Position numbers and translations under genes: made by a program. From positions 1 through 64,000 of the forward strand of contig CBDBHB010000008.1 of the NCBI GenBank assembly GCA_965205505.1: a stretch of DNA of 64,000 nucleotides, given 5' to 3'. Source of the DNA: Acidobacteriota bacterium (GTDB lineage: Bacteria > Acidobacteriota > UBA890 > WLXD01). The notes under the pieces were generated by a model. That model searched no databases and was not told the DNA's origin. It saw only the letters and a program-made list of their open reading frames with translations. Shown one piece after another: positions 3,279 through 45,537 of this stretch; position 1 is the stretch's first letter, and the number at the start of each line of letters is the position of its first letter.

Positions 3279-3463
3279 GACGGGTGCGTAACAATGCGGC
3301 GTCGCATCACTTCCCCTGCTGGTAATCGTCAAGGCTTGCGGGTATCGTCAGCCGCCGGGCGGCGAACTGATGCCCATCTTCGCATGAGGCCGCTGTCGTA
3401 GAGCCCCAGCAGTGGGGCTGGCGTCAATGCCCGACCCACTCGCTAGCCTCCCGAGCCGACGAG

Positions 3464-5109
3464 ATGCCGCCTCCAGACTCCACTCACACCTCGTCGCGTC
3501 GTGCCATCGCGGGTGCGAGCCTCGTCGTGTTCACCAGCTCGGCGTTCATCATGACGCTGGAGATCGTCGCGGCGCGCCTCGTAGCACAGCATCTGGGCGT
3601 ATCGCTCTACACCTGACGGCGGTAATCGGAGTGGTGCTGGCAGGGATCGCCGTGGGCAACTACGTCGGCGGCAAGCTTGCTGACCTGTATCCGCCCCGCG
3701 CCCTGTTGACGACCTTGTTCCTGCTGGCCTCGATGTCGAGTCTTTCCGTGCTGTTCGTCGTCGACTGGATGGGGTCTTGGGAGAGGCCGGAGGTCATCTC
3801 TTGGCCGCTCTGGATCCTTCGCAACGTCGCCCTCACGTTTCTTGCCCCGGCAACCATCATGGGCACGATCTCGCCCGTGGCAGCCAAGCTGGCTCTCGGA
3901 GCGCGACGTGAAGTGGGCGCGACGGTTGGAACCTTGTACGCGAGCGGTGCCTCCGGAAGCATCCTCGGCACGTTCCTTACCGGCTACGTGTTGATCGATG
4001 CCTTCGGCACCAAGACGATCGTCTGCGTCATCGCCGCGGGCCTCGGGACAATGGGCCTGCTAGCGGGACGGGGTTTGCGCCGCAGCCCTGCTTCGTTCTT
4101 CGTGGTCTGGCTATCGTTGCTGTTTCTGATCTCTGCCCTAACCGTGGCGCCGTGGGCGTGGAGCGAGCGCTGGGGCCATTTCTTGGGCCTACGCTTCGCT
4201 ACCGACCATCTTCACTATCAGGACGAGAGCAGCTACTTCACGATCGAGATCTATGACGCCGAGGAATTCGACAACACCCGCGTGTTGGCGCTGGATCATC
4301 TCGTGCACAGCTACGTGAACATGGACGACATCACGCAGCTGGACTACGGCTATGAGACCGTCTACGCCGCGGTGACCCACCACTTGGTAAACACTGACGA
4401 GCCCTTGCGCGCGCTGTTCATCGGCGGTGGTGGTTTTACGTTTCCGCGCTATCTCGATACGCGTTTCGCGGCAGCAGATATCGACGTCGCCGAGATCGAC
4501 CCGGCAGTCAAGCGTGCCGCTCAGGTCGCTCTGGGCCTGCCCGCCGACGATGCTACCCGCATCCGGACGCACACGCTGGACGCTCGCAATTACATCGACG
4601 ATCTGCGGCGGCAGAATCGACGCGTGACGCACCCACATCAATTCGACTTCGTATACGGAGACGCGTTCAACGACCTCGGCGTGCCCTACCACCTGACCAC
4701 ACGGGGCTTCAACGAACGCCTGGCCGAAGTAATGACGCCCGACGGCGTCTACATGATCAACATCATCGATATCTATCGTGAGGGTCTGGGCCGGTTCTTG
4801 GGTGCTTATGTAGGCACCGTGCGATTGACGTTCCCGTTCGTCTACGTGTTCGCTGGCGACCCGGATGGACCCACGGACGAGCGCGACACTTTCATCGTGG
4901 TGAGCTCTCGACGAGCCTTACCGATCCTGGAGATCGGACCTAAAGAGAACGTTCCGGACGCCTGGGGCCACGTGTTTGCCTGGGCCGAGGCCGATCACCT
5001 AGGTGGAGAGATGGCGACAGTGCTGCAGCGCGGCGGTGGGTTGGTGCTGACCGACGACCACGCACCCGTCGACAATCTACTGGCGCCCGTCTTCTCGGAC
5101 AGCAAGTGA
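3464..5109 (+). CDS. Fused MFS/spermidine synthase-like membrane protein (frameshift near 3614)
   Basis: N-terminal frame MPPPD...FIMTLEIVAARLVAQHLGVSLYT joins TAVIGVVLAGIAVGNYVGG; C-terminal IGGGGFTFP, EIDP, DAR, DAF, HLTT, LTDDHAPVD. Confidence 0.85.
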
Positions 5110-5187
5110 GAGGCGCTGCAGCTGGGGCGCGACATGCTCGCGACGAAGCTCACAAGAGAGACCTCGACAGCCCAGCCTAGTGGCCTC

Positions 5188-5462
5188 TAGTGGCCTGTAA
5201 CAGATGATCGTCGCATATCGCAGATGGGATTTGCGGGTGAGATCAAGGCGCGGCGAGGAAGGCGATGCAATAGGCATCATCGACGAGGCGCAACGCCGAT
5301 ATCGCCCGCAACTGCCCATCTGTCCGCAGGATGGCTGCGAAATCGGCCCGTCTGCGGCGTTACTCCTCCTCCAAGATGGGCAAACATCGTCTCGTCGTCG
5401 CGCCTGGCATCCGGACCCATTTCGCCACCACGATATGCAACGATCATCTGTTACAGGCCACT
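5188..5462. repeat. ERIC-like cloverleaf miniature element, copy 1 (right end split by the IS110 insertion; final A at 6869)
   Basis: TIR TAGTGGCCTGTAACAGATGATCGTCGCATATCG (5188-5220) vs 5431-5462, 1 mismatch; two inverted internal hairpin arms with CAAGGCG...CAACGC; central TCC-GCA-GGA. Confidence 0.85.
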
Positions 5463-5499
5463 TCTATGAGAAGGCCTAGTTCGGTCAAGGGCAATGTGG

Positions 5500-5700
5500 T
5501 GCCCAGCGAAGAATCGATCTGCACGCCATGCTCCTATTCGCACTCTGGTGGACGAGGATTCAGGTCGTCCGGTGCATTCTGGGGTCCGTCCCGATTCGAG
5601 GCGCTGCAATCTAGCTGCCGAGCTCGAAGCTCGTAGTGACCTTCGCAGTCGCCCGGACCGGGCGGTCAGATCGATAACCGTTGGGTCGCGTCGCCCTACC
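5500..5700 (-). ncRNA. Predicted bridge RNA / seekRNA of the IS1111-group element
   Basis: Closing stem ATCGATCTG/CAGATCGAT; target-binding loop CTGCGA-[AGGTCACT]-A-CGAGC-TTCGA-GCTCG-GCAG-[CTAG]-A-TTGCAG (5604-5648) matches the insertion target; RNA ends not known. Confidence 0.7.
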
Positions 5701-5722
5701 GACCTCCTGGTTGCGGGTTAGT

Positions 5723-6769
5723 TCATGCTGCTGAAACCTCTACAGGTGCGCGCAACGGTTCGTACTCGTCTCCACTCAGCCACAGTCGGTGCAGCACAAC
5801 GGCGAGCTTACGGGCGACAGCAACTGCTGCCTTTTTGTTGCCATGAGGACCACCGCGTCCGGCCAGCTTGAGCCCCCAGCGTCTGAGCTCAGTATCGGGC
5901 CCGAAGGGGCCCAGGATGTAATGCGCCGAGCCCACCAACAGGCGTCGGAGCATTTTGTCGCCCGCCTTGGTTATTCGTAGCGCAGGGTCCTTGTCCCCCG
6001 ACTGCCGTTTCTTCGGTCTCAGTCCCAGGTACGGGCCCACGGCTCTGGAGGTATTGAACCGCTCCGGCTCCTCGAGCGTCAGCACATACGCCAGTGCGGT
6101 CAGAGCTCCGACCCCGGCCACTTGCTGGAGCTGCTGTGTCTCCGGGTATCGCCCCTGGCACAGCTGCACGATCTGACGCTCGTATTGCTGGATGTTGCCC
6201 GTCAGCATGGCGATCGTTTCAAGCACCGGCTCGAGCGCTCCCTTGAGCCGCTCCGGTATGTGCTCTGGCGCGGTGCGCGCGAACGCCGGCGTCGAGCACC
6301 TGGGAATACGACAACCGGCCGACTTGACCGCACCACGCACATGGCTCACCAACTGCGTGCAGCTCTTTACCAGAGCATCTCGGCTCCGAATCACGGCTAG
6401 ATCCGCTCGCGCTTGTCTGCCTCGATGCTGCACCGTCTTAAGCAGCTTTGGGTCCATTCTGCCCACTCGTGCCAGGTGCTCGGCATCCAACCGGTCGGTC
6501 TTGTCGTGCTCGCCATAGATCAGCTTCAGCCGCCTCGGGTTAGCCACCAGCACCTCATGACCCAGTTGCTTCAACTGCTCACTCATCCACGGCGAGTGCG
6601 TTCCAACCTCCAGCACTACTCGAGCGGGCTCCTCGCACCCGAACCGCCTCGCCAGCCCCTCCGGGCTCGTCCTCACCCGCCCTTCCTCCATCACCCTGCC
6701 CTTACTGTCGAGCACGCACATACGGCTGTACCGGTCGCTTACGTCCAGTCCAATCGTTACACTTGTCAT
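5723..6769 (-). CDS. IS110 family DEDD transposase/recombinase
   Basis: IGLDVS, VLEVG, KTDRLD (RuvC-like DEDD); GVGALTA; GLRPKKRQSG (conserved Ser); AVARKLAVVLH. Confidence 0.96.
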   Translation of the reverse strand: MTSVTIGLDVSDRYSRMCVLDSKGRVMEEGRVRTSPEGLARRFGCEEPARVVLEVGTHSPWMSEQLKQLGHEVLVANPRRLKLIYGEHDKTDRLDAEHLARVGRMDPKLLKTVQHRGRQARADLAVIRSRDALVKSCTQLVSHVRGAVKSAGCRIPRCSTPAFARTAPEHIPERLKGALEPVLETIAMLTGNIQQYERQIVQLCQGRYPETQQLQQVAGVGALTALAYVLTLEEPERFNTSRAVGPYLGLRPKKRQSGDKDPALRITKAGDKMLRRLLVGSAHYILGPFGPDTELRRWGLKLAGRGGPHGNKKAAVAVARKLAVVLHRLWLSGDEYEPLRAPVEVSAA

Positions 6770-6770
6770 C

Positions 6771-6854
6771 GGCCAACCTCCTTGGGCTTCGAGCCCGTTA
6801 CGTTTGAAGAAACGTTTGCAGAGCCGTCAGGCTACTGCGTTCAGGAGGTTGGCC
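6771..6854 (-). promoter_or_regulatory. 12-bp stem sequestering the transposase Shine-Dalgarno
   Basis: GGCCAACCTCCT (6771-6782) and AGGAGGTTGGCC (6843-6854) are inverted; on the minus strand the 3' arm is GGAGG-TTGGCCG-ATG. Confidence 0.6.
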
Positions 6855-6866
6855 TTCTCATCTCAT

Positions 6867-7652
6867 CTAGACGTCCCGCAGCGGCGCCAGGAGGGAACGC
6901 AGGTGCGCGTGCACATGCCCGTTCGTCGCCACGATGTTGCGGCCATGGAGCAGCTTCTGCAGGTCGTCGTTGCCAGCACAATCGGTCACGCGGCCACCCG
7001 ACTCGCTCACCAGCAGGATCCCGGCCGCCACATCCCAAGGCTCCAGGTGCAGCTCCCAGAAGCCGTCGAAGCGACCACAAGCCACCAGGGCGAGGTCCAG
7101 CGCAGCCGACCCCAGCCGGCGCAGCCCGCCCGCCACCGCACCGACGCGCGGAACGTTCTCGAGGTTGTTGTCGGCAAGAGTGTCGCGCGCGTAGGGAAAC
7201 CCGGTGGCCAGAATCGCATCGCTCAGGTCGGCCGTATCGGAGACGGCTGCCGGAGCACCATCCAGCGTCGTGCCACCGCCACGCCGGGCAGCGAAAGTCA
7301 TCTGCAACATCGGAGCGTGCACCACGCCCGCAACCAATTCTCCATCCTCGATCACCGCAATCGCGACGCACCACAAAGGGAGGCCATGGAGAAAATTGAC
7401 CGTGCCGTCGAGCGGATCGATCACCCATAGGCGATCCGAGCCGACGCGACGACGGCCAGACTCCTCGGCCAGCACATCGTCTTCGGCGGGGATCCGGTCC
7501 AGAATCCAGCGCTCCGTCTCCACATCGGCGGCACTCACGAGATCGCGCCGACGGCCACCTTTGCGATCGGCGTGCGCGGCATTCAAGCTGCCGTAGTACC
7601 CCATCAGAACGGTACCGGCACCGTGGGCGAGGTCGACGAGCTGATCCAACAC
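6867..7652 (-). CDS. suhB: Inositol monophosphatase family protein
   Basis: DLVSAAD, LAEESG, WVIDPLDGTVNF, RRLGSAALDLA, WDVAAG; GTG 7652 taken as start. Confidence 0.9.
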   Translation of the reverse strand: MLDQLVDLAHGAGTVLMGYYGSLNAAHADRKGGRRRDLVSAADVETERWILDRIPAEDDVLAEESGRRRVGSDRLWVIDPLDGTVNFLHGLPLWCVAIAVIEDGELVAGVVHAPMLQMTFAARRGGGTTLDGAPAAVSDTADLSDAILATGFPYARDTLADNNLENVPRVGAVAGGLRRLGSAALDLALVACGRFDGFWELHLEPWDVAAGILLVSESGGRVTDCAGNDDLQKLLHGRNIVATNGHVHAHLRSLLAPLRDV

Positions 7653-7789
7653 GGGGGCTCCCGATGGCGAGTGGTACCGACCCCGGGCAAACAGCCGCGC
7701 GGCTACGCGACGCTGCACCCCGGCAGAATGTCACACGGGCAGTATCGCCGATCAGCGCGTCGCGCGGGAAGCGCCCTCCGGGAGCAGCC

Positions 7790-8488
7790 TCAGTAGGCTT
7801 CGAGGCCTTCTTTGTCGAGCACCCAGATAACTCGATCGCTCGACTCTACCAGCCCTTCACGACGGAAACCGTTGAACGCCATGCTGGTGGTTTCTCGGGT
7901 CGATCCGACCAGCTGGCCGAGGTCTGTCTGCGTCAACCGGAGCCCGATTCGCACGCCGCGATCATCGGGAGCACCGCAGTCGTCGGCGAGCCGAACGAGG
8001 GCGTGTGCCAGCCGCGTCCGTACATCCTCGGACAGCAGCGCAATCATACGGTCTTCGATCTCCGCCTTGCGCTTGGCGATGACCGCCGTGACCCAGCCCG
8101 AAAGGTCCGGATGCTGCGCCAGGTAGCCCGCGAATCGGTCACGCTCGATGACGCAGATGAACGCGTCGGCGGCGATCTGGGCGTTGTCGCGGCGCCGATC
8201 GGCACCTATCAGCGCCGTCTCACCGAACATCGCGCCGGGGCCCTCGAAACCGAAAATGACCTGCTTACCGCCGGCGATCTCGCGATACAACTTCACCGTT
8301 CCAGTACGCAGGACGTAGAAGTGATCGCACAGATCACCCGCCCGAAAGACATCTTCGCCGCGCTTGAAGAGACGCAGGTCGGCAATGTTCACCAGCTGCT
8401 TGAGCTCCCAGTCGGCCAGCGTCTTGAACATCCCCATCTGCTTGAGATGCCAGTACTTGGCCTGCGAGATCGCCGAAGACGCTTCCAT
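7790..8488 (-). CDS. Crp/Fnr family transcriptional regulator
   Basis: cNMP domain (G.VKL, FGE) plus HTH LTQTDLGQLVGSTRETTS; GGAGGAG RBS before ATG 8488. Confidence 0.92.
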   Translation of the reverse strand: MEASSAISQAKYWHLKQMGMFKTLADWELKQLVNIADLRLFKRGEDVFRAGDLCDHFYVLRTGTVKLYREIAGGKQVIFGFEGPGAMFGETALIGADRRRDNAQIAADAFICVIERDRFAGYLAQHPDLSGWVTAVIAKRKAEIEDRMIALLSEDVRTRLAHALVRLADDCGAPDDRGVRIGLRLTQTDLGQLVGSTRETTSMAFNGFRREGLVESSDRVIWVLDKEGLEAY

Positions 8489-45425: not shown

Positions 45426-45537
45426 GCGGGTTTCCGGGGCACGCGTCGTCTCAACAGGCCACTAGTGCGATCGGTCATAGCGTGGCTGGCGCCGGGAGGC
45501 CCGCATCCGGCGGCTCGGCGGCAGGCGCCCGCCGTGA

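What the first reader, a model, noticed from the sequence alone, without database searches (positions are those of the whole stretch)
5455..6870. IS1111-group bridge recombinase apparently programmed against the end of the cloverleaf element
Seen: removing 5463-6866 and one CT restores ...TTACAGGCCA-CT-AG, the exact right terminus of cloverleaf copy 1, which also holds the suhB stop codon. In the downstream non-coding end (minus strand, 5604-5648) a CTGCGA/TTGCAG stem encloses AGGTCACT, a CGAGC/GCTCG hairpin, and CTAG. These match target-left plus core (AGGCCACT, one U:G wobble) and the reverse complement of core plus target-right (CTAG). ATAGGAG (5531-5537, minus) resembles the donor junction ATAGAAG. 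Established: IS110/IS1111 recombinases use a bridge/seekRNA with left and right target guides around a 2-nt core, and some target REPs or transposon TIRs. Inference: an intact RNA-guided recombinase whose guide parasitises a multicopy, fitness-neutral repeat. It is a candidate new orthologue with readable guides.
Basis: partly seen in the sequence, partly recalled or inferred. Interest (0 to 1): 0.85.

Follow-up and report, generated by a model that had tools for sequence, protein, structure and literature searches.

The report
RNA-guided IS1111 element targeting a repeat's end
This is an intact jumping gene of the known IS1111 type. It carries its own guide RNA and has inserted about 30 times in this genome, almost always at the same 10-base sequence that ends a common host repeat, so it is a clear new example of a known mechanism.

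Summary

- **The element.** Window 5463-6868 (minus strand) is a 1406-bp IS1111-family insertion sequence. It has a 348-aa DEDD transposase, 11-bp subterminal inverted repeats, 7-bp and 3-bp terminal extensions, and a 260-nt 3' non-coding region.
- **Copies and flanks.** The genome holds 27 full and several partial copies. Of 31 junctions on the repeat side, 30 read AGGCCACT and 1 reads AGGTCACT. Of 28 junctions on the other side, 26 read CTAG.
- **The guides.** The hairpin at 5599-5654 carries AGGUCACU and AGCUAG in its internal loop.
- **Family evidence.** In 44 homologous elements from many phyla the same scaffold holds different loop sequences. Each element's own flanks beat every control flank in 34 of 44. 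A relative in the same taxonomic order has an 88% identical non-coding region, but both its guides and its target differ.
- **Site occupancy.** Sites that match the full 6-nt second guide (CTAGCT) are occupied in 5 of 5 cases. There are 111 empty AGGYCACTAG sites.
- **Second module.** It carries AUAGGAG, which follows the element's own end across the family.
- **Novelty.** This is a new member of a known kind (seekRNA/bridge-RNA IS1111, like the REP-targeting ISPa11). RNA expression, circle formation and activity are untested.

The parts
5463..6868 (-). Whole insertion sequence, 1406 bp, IS1111 type (one copy of the core CT/AG counted inside it)
   Evidence: Ends defined by 27 full copies and their flanks and by the sTIR-plus-extension rule.
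5723..6769 (-). Transposase gene, 348 aa, intact in this copy. It has D9/E54/D92/D95 and the GLRPKKRQSG motif (249-258).
   Evidence: ORF. PF01548 and PF02371. NF033542 at 202.8 bits. Invariant residues in a 20-sequence alignment. Distant match to ISCro4 and IS621 transposases in the PDB.
6862..6868 (-). 7-bp left terminal extension AGATGAG. Its first two bases (6867-6868) are the core AG.
   Evidence: Most homologues have AGATGGG or AGATGAG at this position.
6851..6861 (-). Left subterminal inverted repeat ATGAGAAGGCC
   Evidence: The same 11-mer or a close variant is present in 45 of 80 homologous loci.
5644..5654 (-). 5' half of the outer helix of the target-binding module (GGGCG-A-CUGCG)
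   Evidence: Consensus structure. Helix 1 is 99.3% paired, and 4 of its 9 pairs show compensatory changes.
5635..5642 (-). First target guide AGGUCACU. It is complementary to AGTGGCCT (core AG plus the repeat terminus) with one U:G wobble.
   Evidence: Same position as the flank-matching segment in homologues. Invariant in 27 of 27 copies.
5619..5633 (-). Inner hairpin of the target-binding module
   Evidence: Helix 2 has compensatory changes in 2 of 3 pairs.
5611..5616 (-). Second target guide AGCUAG. It has the same sense as the left flank plus the core AG, and only CUAG is matched at most sites.
   Evidence: Full-match CTAGCT sites: 5 occupied and 0 empty.
5599..5609 (-). 3' half of the outer helix (UUGCAG-CGCCU)
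5577..5585 (-). ACCCCAGAA, the position of the family's left-end-matching (donor) segment. The match in this copy is weak, 4 of 9.
   Evidence: Across the family the covariation total was reached by 0 of 20000 permutations.
5538..5576 (-). Second module: stem UGCAC/GUGCG enclosing a hairpin
   Evidence: Helix 3 is 100% paired. All 5 pairs of helix 4 have compensatory changes.
5531..5537 (-). AUAGGAG, the donor guide matching the right end plus core (CAT-AGA-AG) with one G:T wobble
5483..5488 (-). TTGACC, a candidate -35 of a promoter that would be completed only in the circle junction (inference)
   Evidence: Conserved as TTGACA at the same place in the G011 relative. No sigma-70-like promoter inside the integrated element.
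5463..5476 (-). Right subterminal inverted repeat GGCCTTCTCAT (5466-5476) and the 3-bp right extension AGA (5463-5465)
5455..5462 (+). Target half AGGCCA plus core CT, the terminus of the host repeat
6869..6870 (+). Target half AG. Together with 6867-6868 it forms CTAG, which holds the stop codon of the inositol-monophosphatase-family gene (6867-7718, minus strand).
5187..5462 (.).
   Evidence: 209 BLAST matches in the genome, 53 of them at least 230 nt. Folds at -80.8 kcal/mol, z = -8.4. Present in all 4 same-genus genomes.

Best explanation
Window 5463-6868 is an intact IS1111-family insertion sequence. Its DEDD transposase is aimed by an RNA encoded in its own 3' non-coding region (a seekRNA, also called a bridge RNA).

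- **Target module (5599-5654, minus strand).** It is a 9-bp helix around an internal loop.
  - The 5' side of the loop, AGGUCACU, pairs with one strand of the target: core AG plus TGGCCT, the last bases of a 276-bp host repeat.
  - The 3' side, AGCUAG, pairs with the other strand on the far side of the cut.
- **Recombination.** It occurs at the 2-nt core (AG in transposase orientation, CT on the window's + strand). The core therefore appears at both junctions.
- **Second module (5531-5585).** It carries AUAGGAG, which matches the element's own right end plus core. By analogy this module holds the donor.

Shown here: the anatomy, the target rule, the conserved scaffold, and the covariation of guides with flanks.

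Inferred, not shown: transcription from a circle-junction promoter, RNA binding by the protein, and current activity.
For: 1. **Family features.** PF01548 and PF02371. NF033542 above its cut-off. 11-bp sTIR, 7/3-bp extensions and a 260-nt downstream non-coding region.
2. **Target rule inside the genome.**
   - 30 of 31 repeat-side junctions read AGGCCACT and 1 reads AGGTCACT, which is the perfect guide match.
   - 26 of 28 junctions on the other side read CTAG.
   - At least 6 insertions lie outside the repeat and share only the 10-bp motif.
3. **Guide conservation.** The target module is invariant in 27 of 27 full copies.
4. **Family covariation.**
   - Of 80 homologous loci, 44 elements including this one had ends and flanks usable.
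   - In 34 of the 44, the element's own flanks gave a better guide match than every control flank. The mean was 13.4 against 11.2, sd 0.7.
   - The matches sit in one conserved scaffold: GACUGCG, guide, hairpin, guide, AU, NGCAGC.
5. **Structure.** 21 consensus pairs, 12 with compensatory changes. 93.6% of cells pair against 82.0% in shuffles (0 of 500 reach it) and 30-46% in slid controls.
6. **Natural reprogramming.**
   - The G011 relative has an 88% identical non-coding region.
   - Its guides are ACGGACUCU and GAGUAG.
   - Its flanks are ...GAGT and AGAGTCCG....
7. **Occupancy follows the second guide.** AGGYCACTAG followed by CT is occupied in 5 cases and empty in 0, against 23 occupied and 111 empty for other sites, Fisher p = 2e-4.
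8. **Donor motif.** ATGGAAG goes with right end CAT-GGA (36 elements). ATAG(A/G)AG goes with CAT-AGA (6 elements). That is 42 of 42 consistent.
9. **Guide order.** The top-strand match lies 5' of the bottom-strand match, as reported for IS1111 seekRNAs (PMC11187229, sections 4 and 9, read).
Against: - **The window's own copy fails the automatic test.** With this copy's flanks, 18 of 41 control flanks scored as high. Its left flank matches only CUAG of the 6-nt guide. The case for this copy therefore rests on scaffold homology and on the population of junctions.
- **Weak left-end donor match here.** It is 4 of 9 in this element.
- **Published result against a needed second module.** In the ISEc11 work the short seekRNA without a second module sufficed for transposition (PMC11187229, section 10, read).
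- **No direct RNA evidence.**
  - Contigs of two metatranscriptome runs cover 5406-6686 and 5468-6177.
  - Contigs give no strand, ends or level, and DNA carry-over is not excluded.
- **No circle junction or excision joint** was seen in the four runs laid.
- **No Rfam match**.
- **Many broken copies.** Only 10 of 27 full copies read as intact genes in this assembly.
- **Non-independence.** Related homologues are not independent, so the permutation figures overstate significance.
Confidence: 0.9

Rival explanations
1. The transposase protein alone reads the target AGGCCACTAG. The hairpin in the non-coding region would then be a terminator, an mRNA-stability element or a protein-binding site, and its resemblance to the target would be coincidence.
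For: - For the window's own copy, the naive flank-to-guide score is not better than controls: 18 of 41 are as high.
- No RNA ends or strand are shown.
- No Rfam family matches.
Against: - In 34 of 44 homologues the loop sequences change together with the flanks while the scaffold stays the same.
- The G011 relative differs almost only in the two loop segments and in its target.
- Occupancy follows the distal two bases of the 6-nt guide.
- RNA guidance is experimentally established for this family (PMC11187229, read; PMC11208160, passages read).
Confidence: 0.04
2. The shared flanks do not come from targeted insertion. They come from copying of a composite unit (repeat plus element) by duplication or homologous recombination.
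For: - Most repeat-side flanks are the same repeat family.
- Two copies share the same flank on the unique side, C6:423101 and C6:513822.
- Variant sites are shuffled among copies, with 26 haplotypes in 27 copies. That points to recombination or assembly mixing.
Against: - 28 of 29 unique-side flanks are different sequences.
- At least 6 insertions are outside the repeat and share only the 10-bp motif.
- The repeat occurs without the element at 111 sites in this genome.
- The repeat is also present in same-genus genomes where no intact element was found.
- The orthologous site in G003 has the repeat with an uninterrupted terminus.
Confidence: 0.03
3. The element is a recently dead family. The guides are real relics, but nothing in this genome is active any more.
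For: - 17 of 27 full copies carry frameshifts.
- No circle junction was seen.
- No internal promoter was found.
Against: - 10 copies keep the full 348-aa frame with 345-348 identical residues.
- Copies are 98.6-100% identical.
- The target module is invariant in all 27 full copies.
- Contigs cannot show rare circle junctions.
Confidence: 0.15

Closest known systems
ISEc11, ISKpn4 and ISPst6 (IS1111 family, seekRNA shown experimentally; PMC11187229, sections 4, 6, 8, 9, 10 and 13 read)
   Same: - DEDD transposase of 330-350 aa.
- 11-13-bp sTIR with 7-bp and 3-bp extensions.
- Long non-coding region downstream of the gene.
- A hairpin RNA with a top-strand match 5' of a bottom-strand match, the two overlapping at the insertion point.
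- Natural reprogramming between relatives.
   Different: - A different target and different guides.
- The transposase sequence relation to these elements was not measured here.
- No experiment of any kind on this element.
ISPa11, ISPpu9 and ISPpu10 (IS1111/IS110-family elements that insert into REP sequences). PMC11187229 was read. For PMC12288879 only the search listing and the start of the abstract were seen.
   Same: They target a short motif inside an abundant, structured, intergenic host repeat. This gives many equivalent landing sites outside genes.
   Different: - The host repeat here is a 276-bp branched element with about 24-bp inverted termini, not a REP of about 35 bp.
- The insertion point is its very last bases, so the second guide reads variable sequence outside the repeat.
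[quoted passage not shown] Known here only from a reference title seen and from recall.
   Same: An IS1111 member aimed at the terminal inverted repeat of another mobile or repeated element.
   Different: - The target here is a non-coding chromosomal repeat, not a resistance transposon.
- No sequence comparison was made.
IS621 and ISCro4 bridge recombinases (IS110 group, with solved structures)
   Same: - The same protein superfamily: PDB matches 9t56 at E = 7.5e-9 and 8wt6 at E = 9.2e-8 over the C-terminal domain.
- A two-module RNA that reads both target and donor around a 2-nt core.
   Different: - The RNA is at the 3' end of the element, not the 5' end.
- The order of the guides is reversed.
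- The sTIRs are long.
- The donor-matching segments lie outside a stem (a multi-loop) rather than in a simple internal loop. Durrant et al. predicted this for many IS1111 members (PMC11208160, passage read).

Membership tests
IS1111 group of the IS110 family | N-terminal DEDD (RuvC-like) transposase domain | tested here: met
   PF01548 at E = 1.4e-17, residues 6-149. D9, E54, D92 and D95 are invariant in 20 aligned homologues.
IS1111 group of the IS110 family | C-terminal PF02371 domain with the GL-P----S(T)G motif | tested here: met
   PF02371 at E = 5.4e-17. GLRPKKRQSG lies at residues 249-258. G249, L250 and G258 are invariant and S257 is nearly invariant. The motif definition comes from PMC11187229, section 6.
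IS1111 group of the IS110 family | Subterminal inverted repeats of about 11-13 bp with asymmetric terminal extensions (7 bp left, 3 bp right) | tested here: met
   ATGAGAAGGCC / GGCCTTCTCAT, 11 of 11 bases. Extensions are AGATGAG and AGA.
IS1111 group of the IS110 family | The longer non-coding region lies downstream of the transposase gene | tested here: met
   260 nt downstream against 99 nt upstream.
IS1111 group of the IS110 family | Site-specific and orientation-specific insertion with no true target duplication | tested here: met
   All 31 junctions lie in one orientation relative to AGGYCACT, and only the 2-nt core is repeated. An orthologous empty site exists.
IS1111 group of the IS110 family | Circular intermediate with abutted ends that creates a promoter | tested here: inconclusive
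   No joint was seen in the contigs of four runs. Joining the ends in a script gives TTGACC, 16 nt, TAGAAG, or TTGACC, 18 nt, GAAGAT, across the junction.
seekRNA / bridge RNA | Two short RNA segments complementary to opposite strands of the target, overlapping at the insertion point, with the top-strand match 5' in IS1111 types | tested here: met
   AGGUCACU followed by AGCUAG. Covariation with flanks in 34 of 44 elements.
seekRNA / bridge RNA | Conserved secondary structure that presents the guides in an internal loop | tested here: met
   12 of 21 pairs have compensatory changes, and 0 of 500 shuffles reach the observed covariation.
seekRNA / bridge RNA | A donor-binding module that matches the element's own ends | tested here: inconclusive
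   The right-end match is consistent in 42 of 42 elements. The left-end match covaries across the family but is only 4 of 9 in this element.
seekRNA / bridge RNA | The RNA is transcribed, binds the transposase and is required for transposition | not testable with these tools
   There are only strandless contigs from RNA libraries.

The most novel reading that the evidence does not exclude
The part of the 3' non-coding RNA beyond the short target-seeking hairpin would be a real donor-binding module in this widespread IS1111 clade.

- **How it would work.** It reads both ends of the element plus the core from single-stranded segments that flank a stem.
- **Why it would matter.**
  - The seekRNA study states that the role of the 'long seekRNA' is not established (PMC11187229, discussion passage read).
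  - This reading would give that RNA a function.
  - It would also make both specificities of these compact enzymes readable from sequence.
- **A second point.** This genome is a natural specificity experiment. Fully matched sites are saturated (5 of 5). Sites that mismatch the two distal guide bases are filled at about one in six (23 occupied against 111 empty).
Probability: 0.45. Interest if true: 0.5.

Novelty: new member of a known kind. Interest (0 to 1): 0.35.

Why it matters
- **A well-documented natural case.** One genome offers about 30 occupied and 111 empty target sites. From these one can read which guide positions are needed in vivo.
  - The 8-nt first guide tolerates one wobble.
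  - In the 6-nt second guide only the four bases nearest the core are required, but a full match predicts occupancy.
- **A clade for testing.** The scaffold and the sTIR (ATGAGAAGGCC) are conserved in assembled genomes labelled as Gemmatimonadota, Actinomycetota, Acidobacteriota, Chloroflexota, Eremiobacterota, Myxococcota and others. That yields a ready set of uncharacterised IS1111-type recombinases with readable guides.
- **A recent burst on an old repeat.** The host repeat is older than the element and shared by the genus. Among the 31 genomes searched, an intact element was found only in this one.
- **No change to the established mechanism.** Nothing here alters what is already known about how these elements work.

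Tried and rejected
- **Rfam**: no family matched 4500-8000 at E up to 1. No curated model recognises this RNA.
- **Whole-region fold**: folding the full 263-nt non-coding region gave only z = -2.1 and a long-range pairing that the family does not conserve. I used the comparative structure instead.
- **Donor guide in a simple internal loop**: I looked for a segment complementary to the left end inside a loop like that of IS621, and found none. The conserved ACCCCA segment lies outside the stem.
- **ACCCCA pairing with GGG/TGG downstream of AUGGAAG:** I considered an RNA-RNA helix by eye on alignment A2. The register is inconsistent, so it was neither supported nor excluded.
- **Reads**: the contigs of two RNA-library runs and two other runs showed no circle junction and no excision joint. 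Contigs cannot show rare forms, so this says nothing either way.
- **Trans-mobilised defective lineage:**
  - I considered whether the 12 copies sharing one 4-bp deletion form a defective lineage moved in trans.
  - The variant sites are shuffled (26 haplotypes in 27 copies).
  - Gene conversion or assembly mixing of a 1.4-kb repeat explains this as well, so I draw no conclusion.
- **Other IS110-family elements in this genome**: all 47 listed matches lie at places that correspond to copies of this one element. I checked this by eye.
  - The supplements of the papers were closed. Supplementary figures 6-9 of PMC11187229 (long seekRNA folds) and the extended data of PMC11208160 could bear on the donor-module claim.
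  - ISfinder could not be queried, so I cannot say whether this element already has a name there.
- **Organism:** it was not identified.
Full report
**What is in the window.** Between 5463 and 6868 lies a 1406-bp element read on the minus strand.
- It encodes a 348-aa protein (5723-6769). Pfam finds DEDD_Tnp_IS110 (PF01548, E = 1.4e-17) and Transposase_20 (PF02371, E = 5.4e-17).
- NCBIfam NF033542, 'IS110 family RNA-guided transposase', scores 202.8 bits against a cut-off of 140.
- The only solved relatives by sequence are the ISCro4 and IS621 transposases, at E = 7.5e-9 and 9.2e-8.
- D9, E54, D92 and D95 and the motif GLRPKKRQSG are conserved in a 20-sequence alignment.
- In transposase orientation the element reads as follows:
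  - a 7-bp extension AGATGAG;
  - an 11-bp subterminal inverted repeat ATGAGAAGGCC;
  - 81 nt, then the gene;
  - a 260-nt non-coding region that ends with the inverted repeat GGCCTTCTCAT and a 3-bp extension AGA.
- These are the defining features of the IS1111 group as listed by Siddiquee et al. (PMC11187229, sections 4 and 6, read).

**Check of the observation.**
- Removing the element and one CT restores GTTACAGGCCACTAG. This is the inverted copy of the left terminus of the same 276-bp repeat (5187-5201).
- The stop codon of the neighbouring inositol-monophosphatase-family gene (6867-7718, PF00459) lies in the CTAG.
- In a same-genus genome (G003), the same gene is followed by the repeat with an uninterrupted terminus...catctgttacaggccactagatcg....
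- In another same-genus genome (G004) the repeat itself is absent from that site.

The genome (5.98 Mb, 9 contigs) holds 33 BLAST matches to the element, 27 of them full length at 98.6-100% identity.
- Of the 31 matches that begin at the element's first base, 30 are preceded by AGGCCACT. One is preceded by AGGTCACT, the sequence that matches the guide without a wobble.
- Of the 28 that reach the last base, 26 are followed by CTAG, one by CTAA, and one by CTCA then TCTAG.
- Most repeat-side flanks are termini of the repeat family. At least six are not and share only the 10-bp motif (by eye).
- AGGCCACTAG occurs 109 times uninterrupted. Composition predicts 13, and 200 permutations of the word average 17 with a maximum of 89.
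- The target module 5599-5654 does not vary in any of the 27 full copies.

**Comparison with relatives.** The closest are at 92% identity.
- A scan of one genome per species returned 473 confirmed stretches, and the best 80 were kept. They are 49-60% identical and come from assembled genomes labelled with many phyla.
- In 45 of the 80, the same sTIR or a close variant let me place both ends. In the other 35, my pattern failed on one side.
- After dropping two loci with too little flank, 44 elements including this one were tested.
- For each element I searched the non-coding region for two things:
  - a 9-nt segment complementary to the right flank;
  - 8-59 nt downstream of it, a 6-nt segment equal to the last four bases of the left flank plus the first two of the element.
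- I then compared the score with the same search using the flanks of unrelated elements.
- The element's own flanks beat every control in 34 of 44. The mean was 13.4 against 11.2, sd 0.7.
- The window's own copy did not pass this test: 18 of 41 controls scored as high. Its left flank matches only four of the six bases.
- The matches always sit in one scaffold: GACUGCG, first guide, GC-rich hairpin, second guide, AU, NGCAGC. The window's AGGUCACU and AGCUAG occupy exactly those places.
- A consensus fold of 35 distinct sequences gives 21 pairs, 12 with compensatory changes. 93.6% of cells pair, against 82.0% in shuffles (0 of 500 reach it) and 30-46% when partners are slid.
- The closest informative relative lies in a genome of the same order (G011). 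Its non-coding region is 88% identical.
  - The differences are concentrated in the two guides and in compensating changes of the inner hairpin.
  - Its guides, ACGGACUCU and GAGUAG, match its own flanks, AGAGTCCG and GAGT-AG.
- The order of the guides, with the top-strand match first, is the one reported for IS1111-type seekRNAs (PMC11187229, section 9).

**Evidence inside this genome that the second guide is six bases.**
- Among 111 empty AGGYCACTAG sites, none is followed by CT. Among 28 occupied CTAG junctions, five are. Fisher p = 2e-4.
- So every site that matches AGCUAG in full is occupied. Sites that match only CUAG are filled much less often.
- The single CTAA junction is followed by CT. 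It matches five of six positions, including the distal two.

**A second module.** About 70-110 nt downstream of the second guide, 42 of 44 elements carry AT(G/A)G(A/G)(A/G)G next to an invariant stem UGCAC/GUGCG.
- Its third base follows the right-end extension in all 42. ATGG goes with CAT-GGA (36 elements). ATAG goes with CAT-AGA (6 elements: this one, L058, and the related L064, L076, L080 and L083).
- One element (L073), whose left end begins GG rather than AG, has ATGGAGG.
- The motif therefore equals the right end plus core. In this element AUAGGAG needs one G:T wobble.
- On the 5' side of the stem, ACCCCA-like segments track changes in the left extension. Examples are CCUUA with AGATAAGG, CCCCCA with AGCTGGGG, and CUCA with ATGAG. 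The summed score was reached by 0 of 20000 permutations.
- Relatives are not independent, however, and this element matches only 4 of 9.
- Siddiquee et al. found that the short RNA alone suffices for ISEc11 and left the role of the long form open (PMC11187229, sections 10 and 14, read).
- I therefore call the donor module likely but not established.

**Expression and activity.**
- No sigma-70-like promoter lies inside the integrated element.
- Joining the ends would place TTGACC 16-18 nt upstream of TAGAAG or GAAGAT across the junction. The TTGAC is conserved in the G011 relative. This is inference, taken from the family's known circle-junction promoter.
- Contigs of two metatranscriptome runs cover the non-coding region and most of the gene. 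They give no strand or ends and may contain DNA.
- No circle or excision joint appeared.
- Ten of the 27 full copies keep the full reading frame.
- Variant sites are shuffled among copies, so per-copy states are uncertain.

**The host repeat.**
- The 276-bp element folds into a long branched hairpin (z = -8.4). It has more than 100 matches in this genome.
- It is present in all four same-genus genomes searched (4, 86, 98 and 72 matches) and, more diverged, in other genera.
- An intact copy of the insertion sequence was found only in this genome among 31 searched.
- The repeat is therefore older, and the element is a recent arrival that exploits it.

**Verdict.**
- The element is a member of the IS1111 group with a readable seekRNA/bridge RNA, aimed at the terminus of a host repeat.
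- This is the same strategy as the REP-targeting ISPa11 and ISPpu9.
- It is a new member of a known kind. Confidence in the mechanism is 0.9 and interest is 0.35.

Noticed in passing
window 5187-5462: A 276-bp structured repeat with inverted termini of about 24 bp. It folds at -80.8 kcal/mol (z = -8.4) and has over 100 matches in this genome. It is abundant in all 4 same-genus genomes searched. The site next to the phosphatase gene is polymorphic: the repeat is present in G003 and absent in G004. Its own mode of spread is unknown.
   Followed up: partly
window 5177-5196: The 10-bp target CTAGTGGCCT occurs twice in tandem at the left end of the repeat. Two such tandem cases were seen among the empty sites in the genome. 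The origin is unexplained.
   Followed up: no
genome-wide (G000): 43 of 111 empty target sites are followed by TG, which fits the palindromic double form AGGCCACTAGTGGCCT. Only 1 of 29 occupied junctions is in that class (Fisher p = 9e-5). Head-to-head sites seem to be avoided or lost.
   Followed up: no
all 27 full copies; window 6501-6504 and 6360: 12 copies share a 4-bp deletion, 5 share a 1-bp deletion, and 17 of 27 are frameshifted. Nine variant sites occur in 26 different combinations among the 27 copies. This could be gene conversion, trans-mobilised defective copies, or assembly mixing of a repeat.
   Followed up: partly
G000 C6:423101 and C6:513822: Two copies in opposite orientation, about 90 kb apart, share the same unique-side flank. 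This could be an inversion end point, a duplication or an assembly artefact.
   Followed up: no
window 45454-45465: A solitary, unoccupied ACAGGCCACTAG that is not inside the repeat, followed by TG.
   Followed up: no
L112 and L119 (G011:C1:3908074-3912196): The relative of this element in G011 matches in two pieces about 2.7 kb apart, as if interrupted by another insertion within the transposase gene.
   Followed up: no
L113 (G004:C12:90868-90992): A same-genus genome that lacks the intact element holds a 125-bp fragment 88% identical to part of the non-coding RNA region. It also holds short end fragments. These could be remnants of an older invasion.
   Followed up: no
window 3412-5109 (+): A 565-aa ORF upstream of the repeat has no Pfam match at E up to 0.001.
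   Followed up: no
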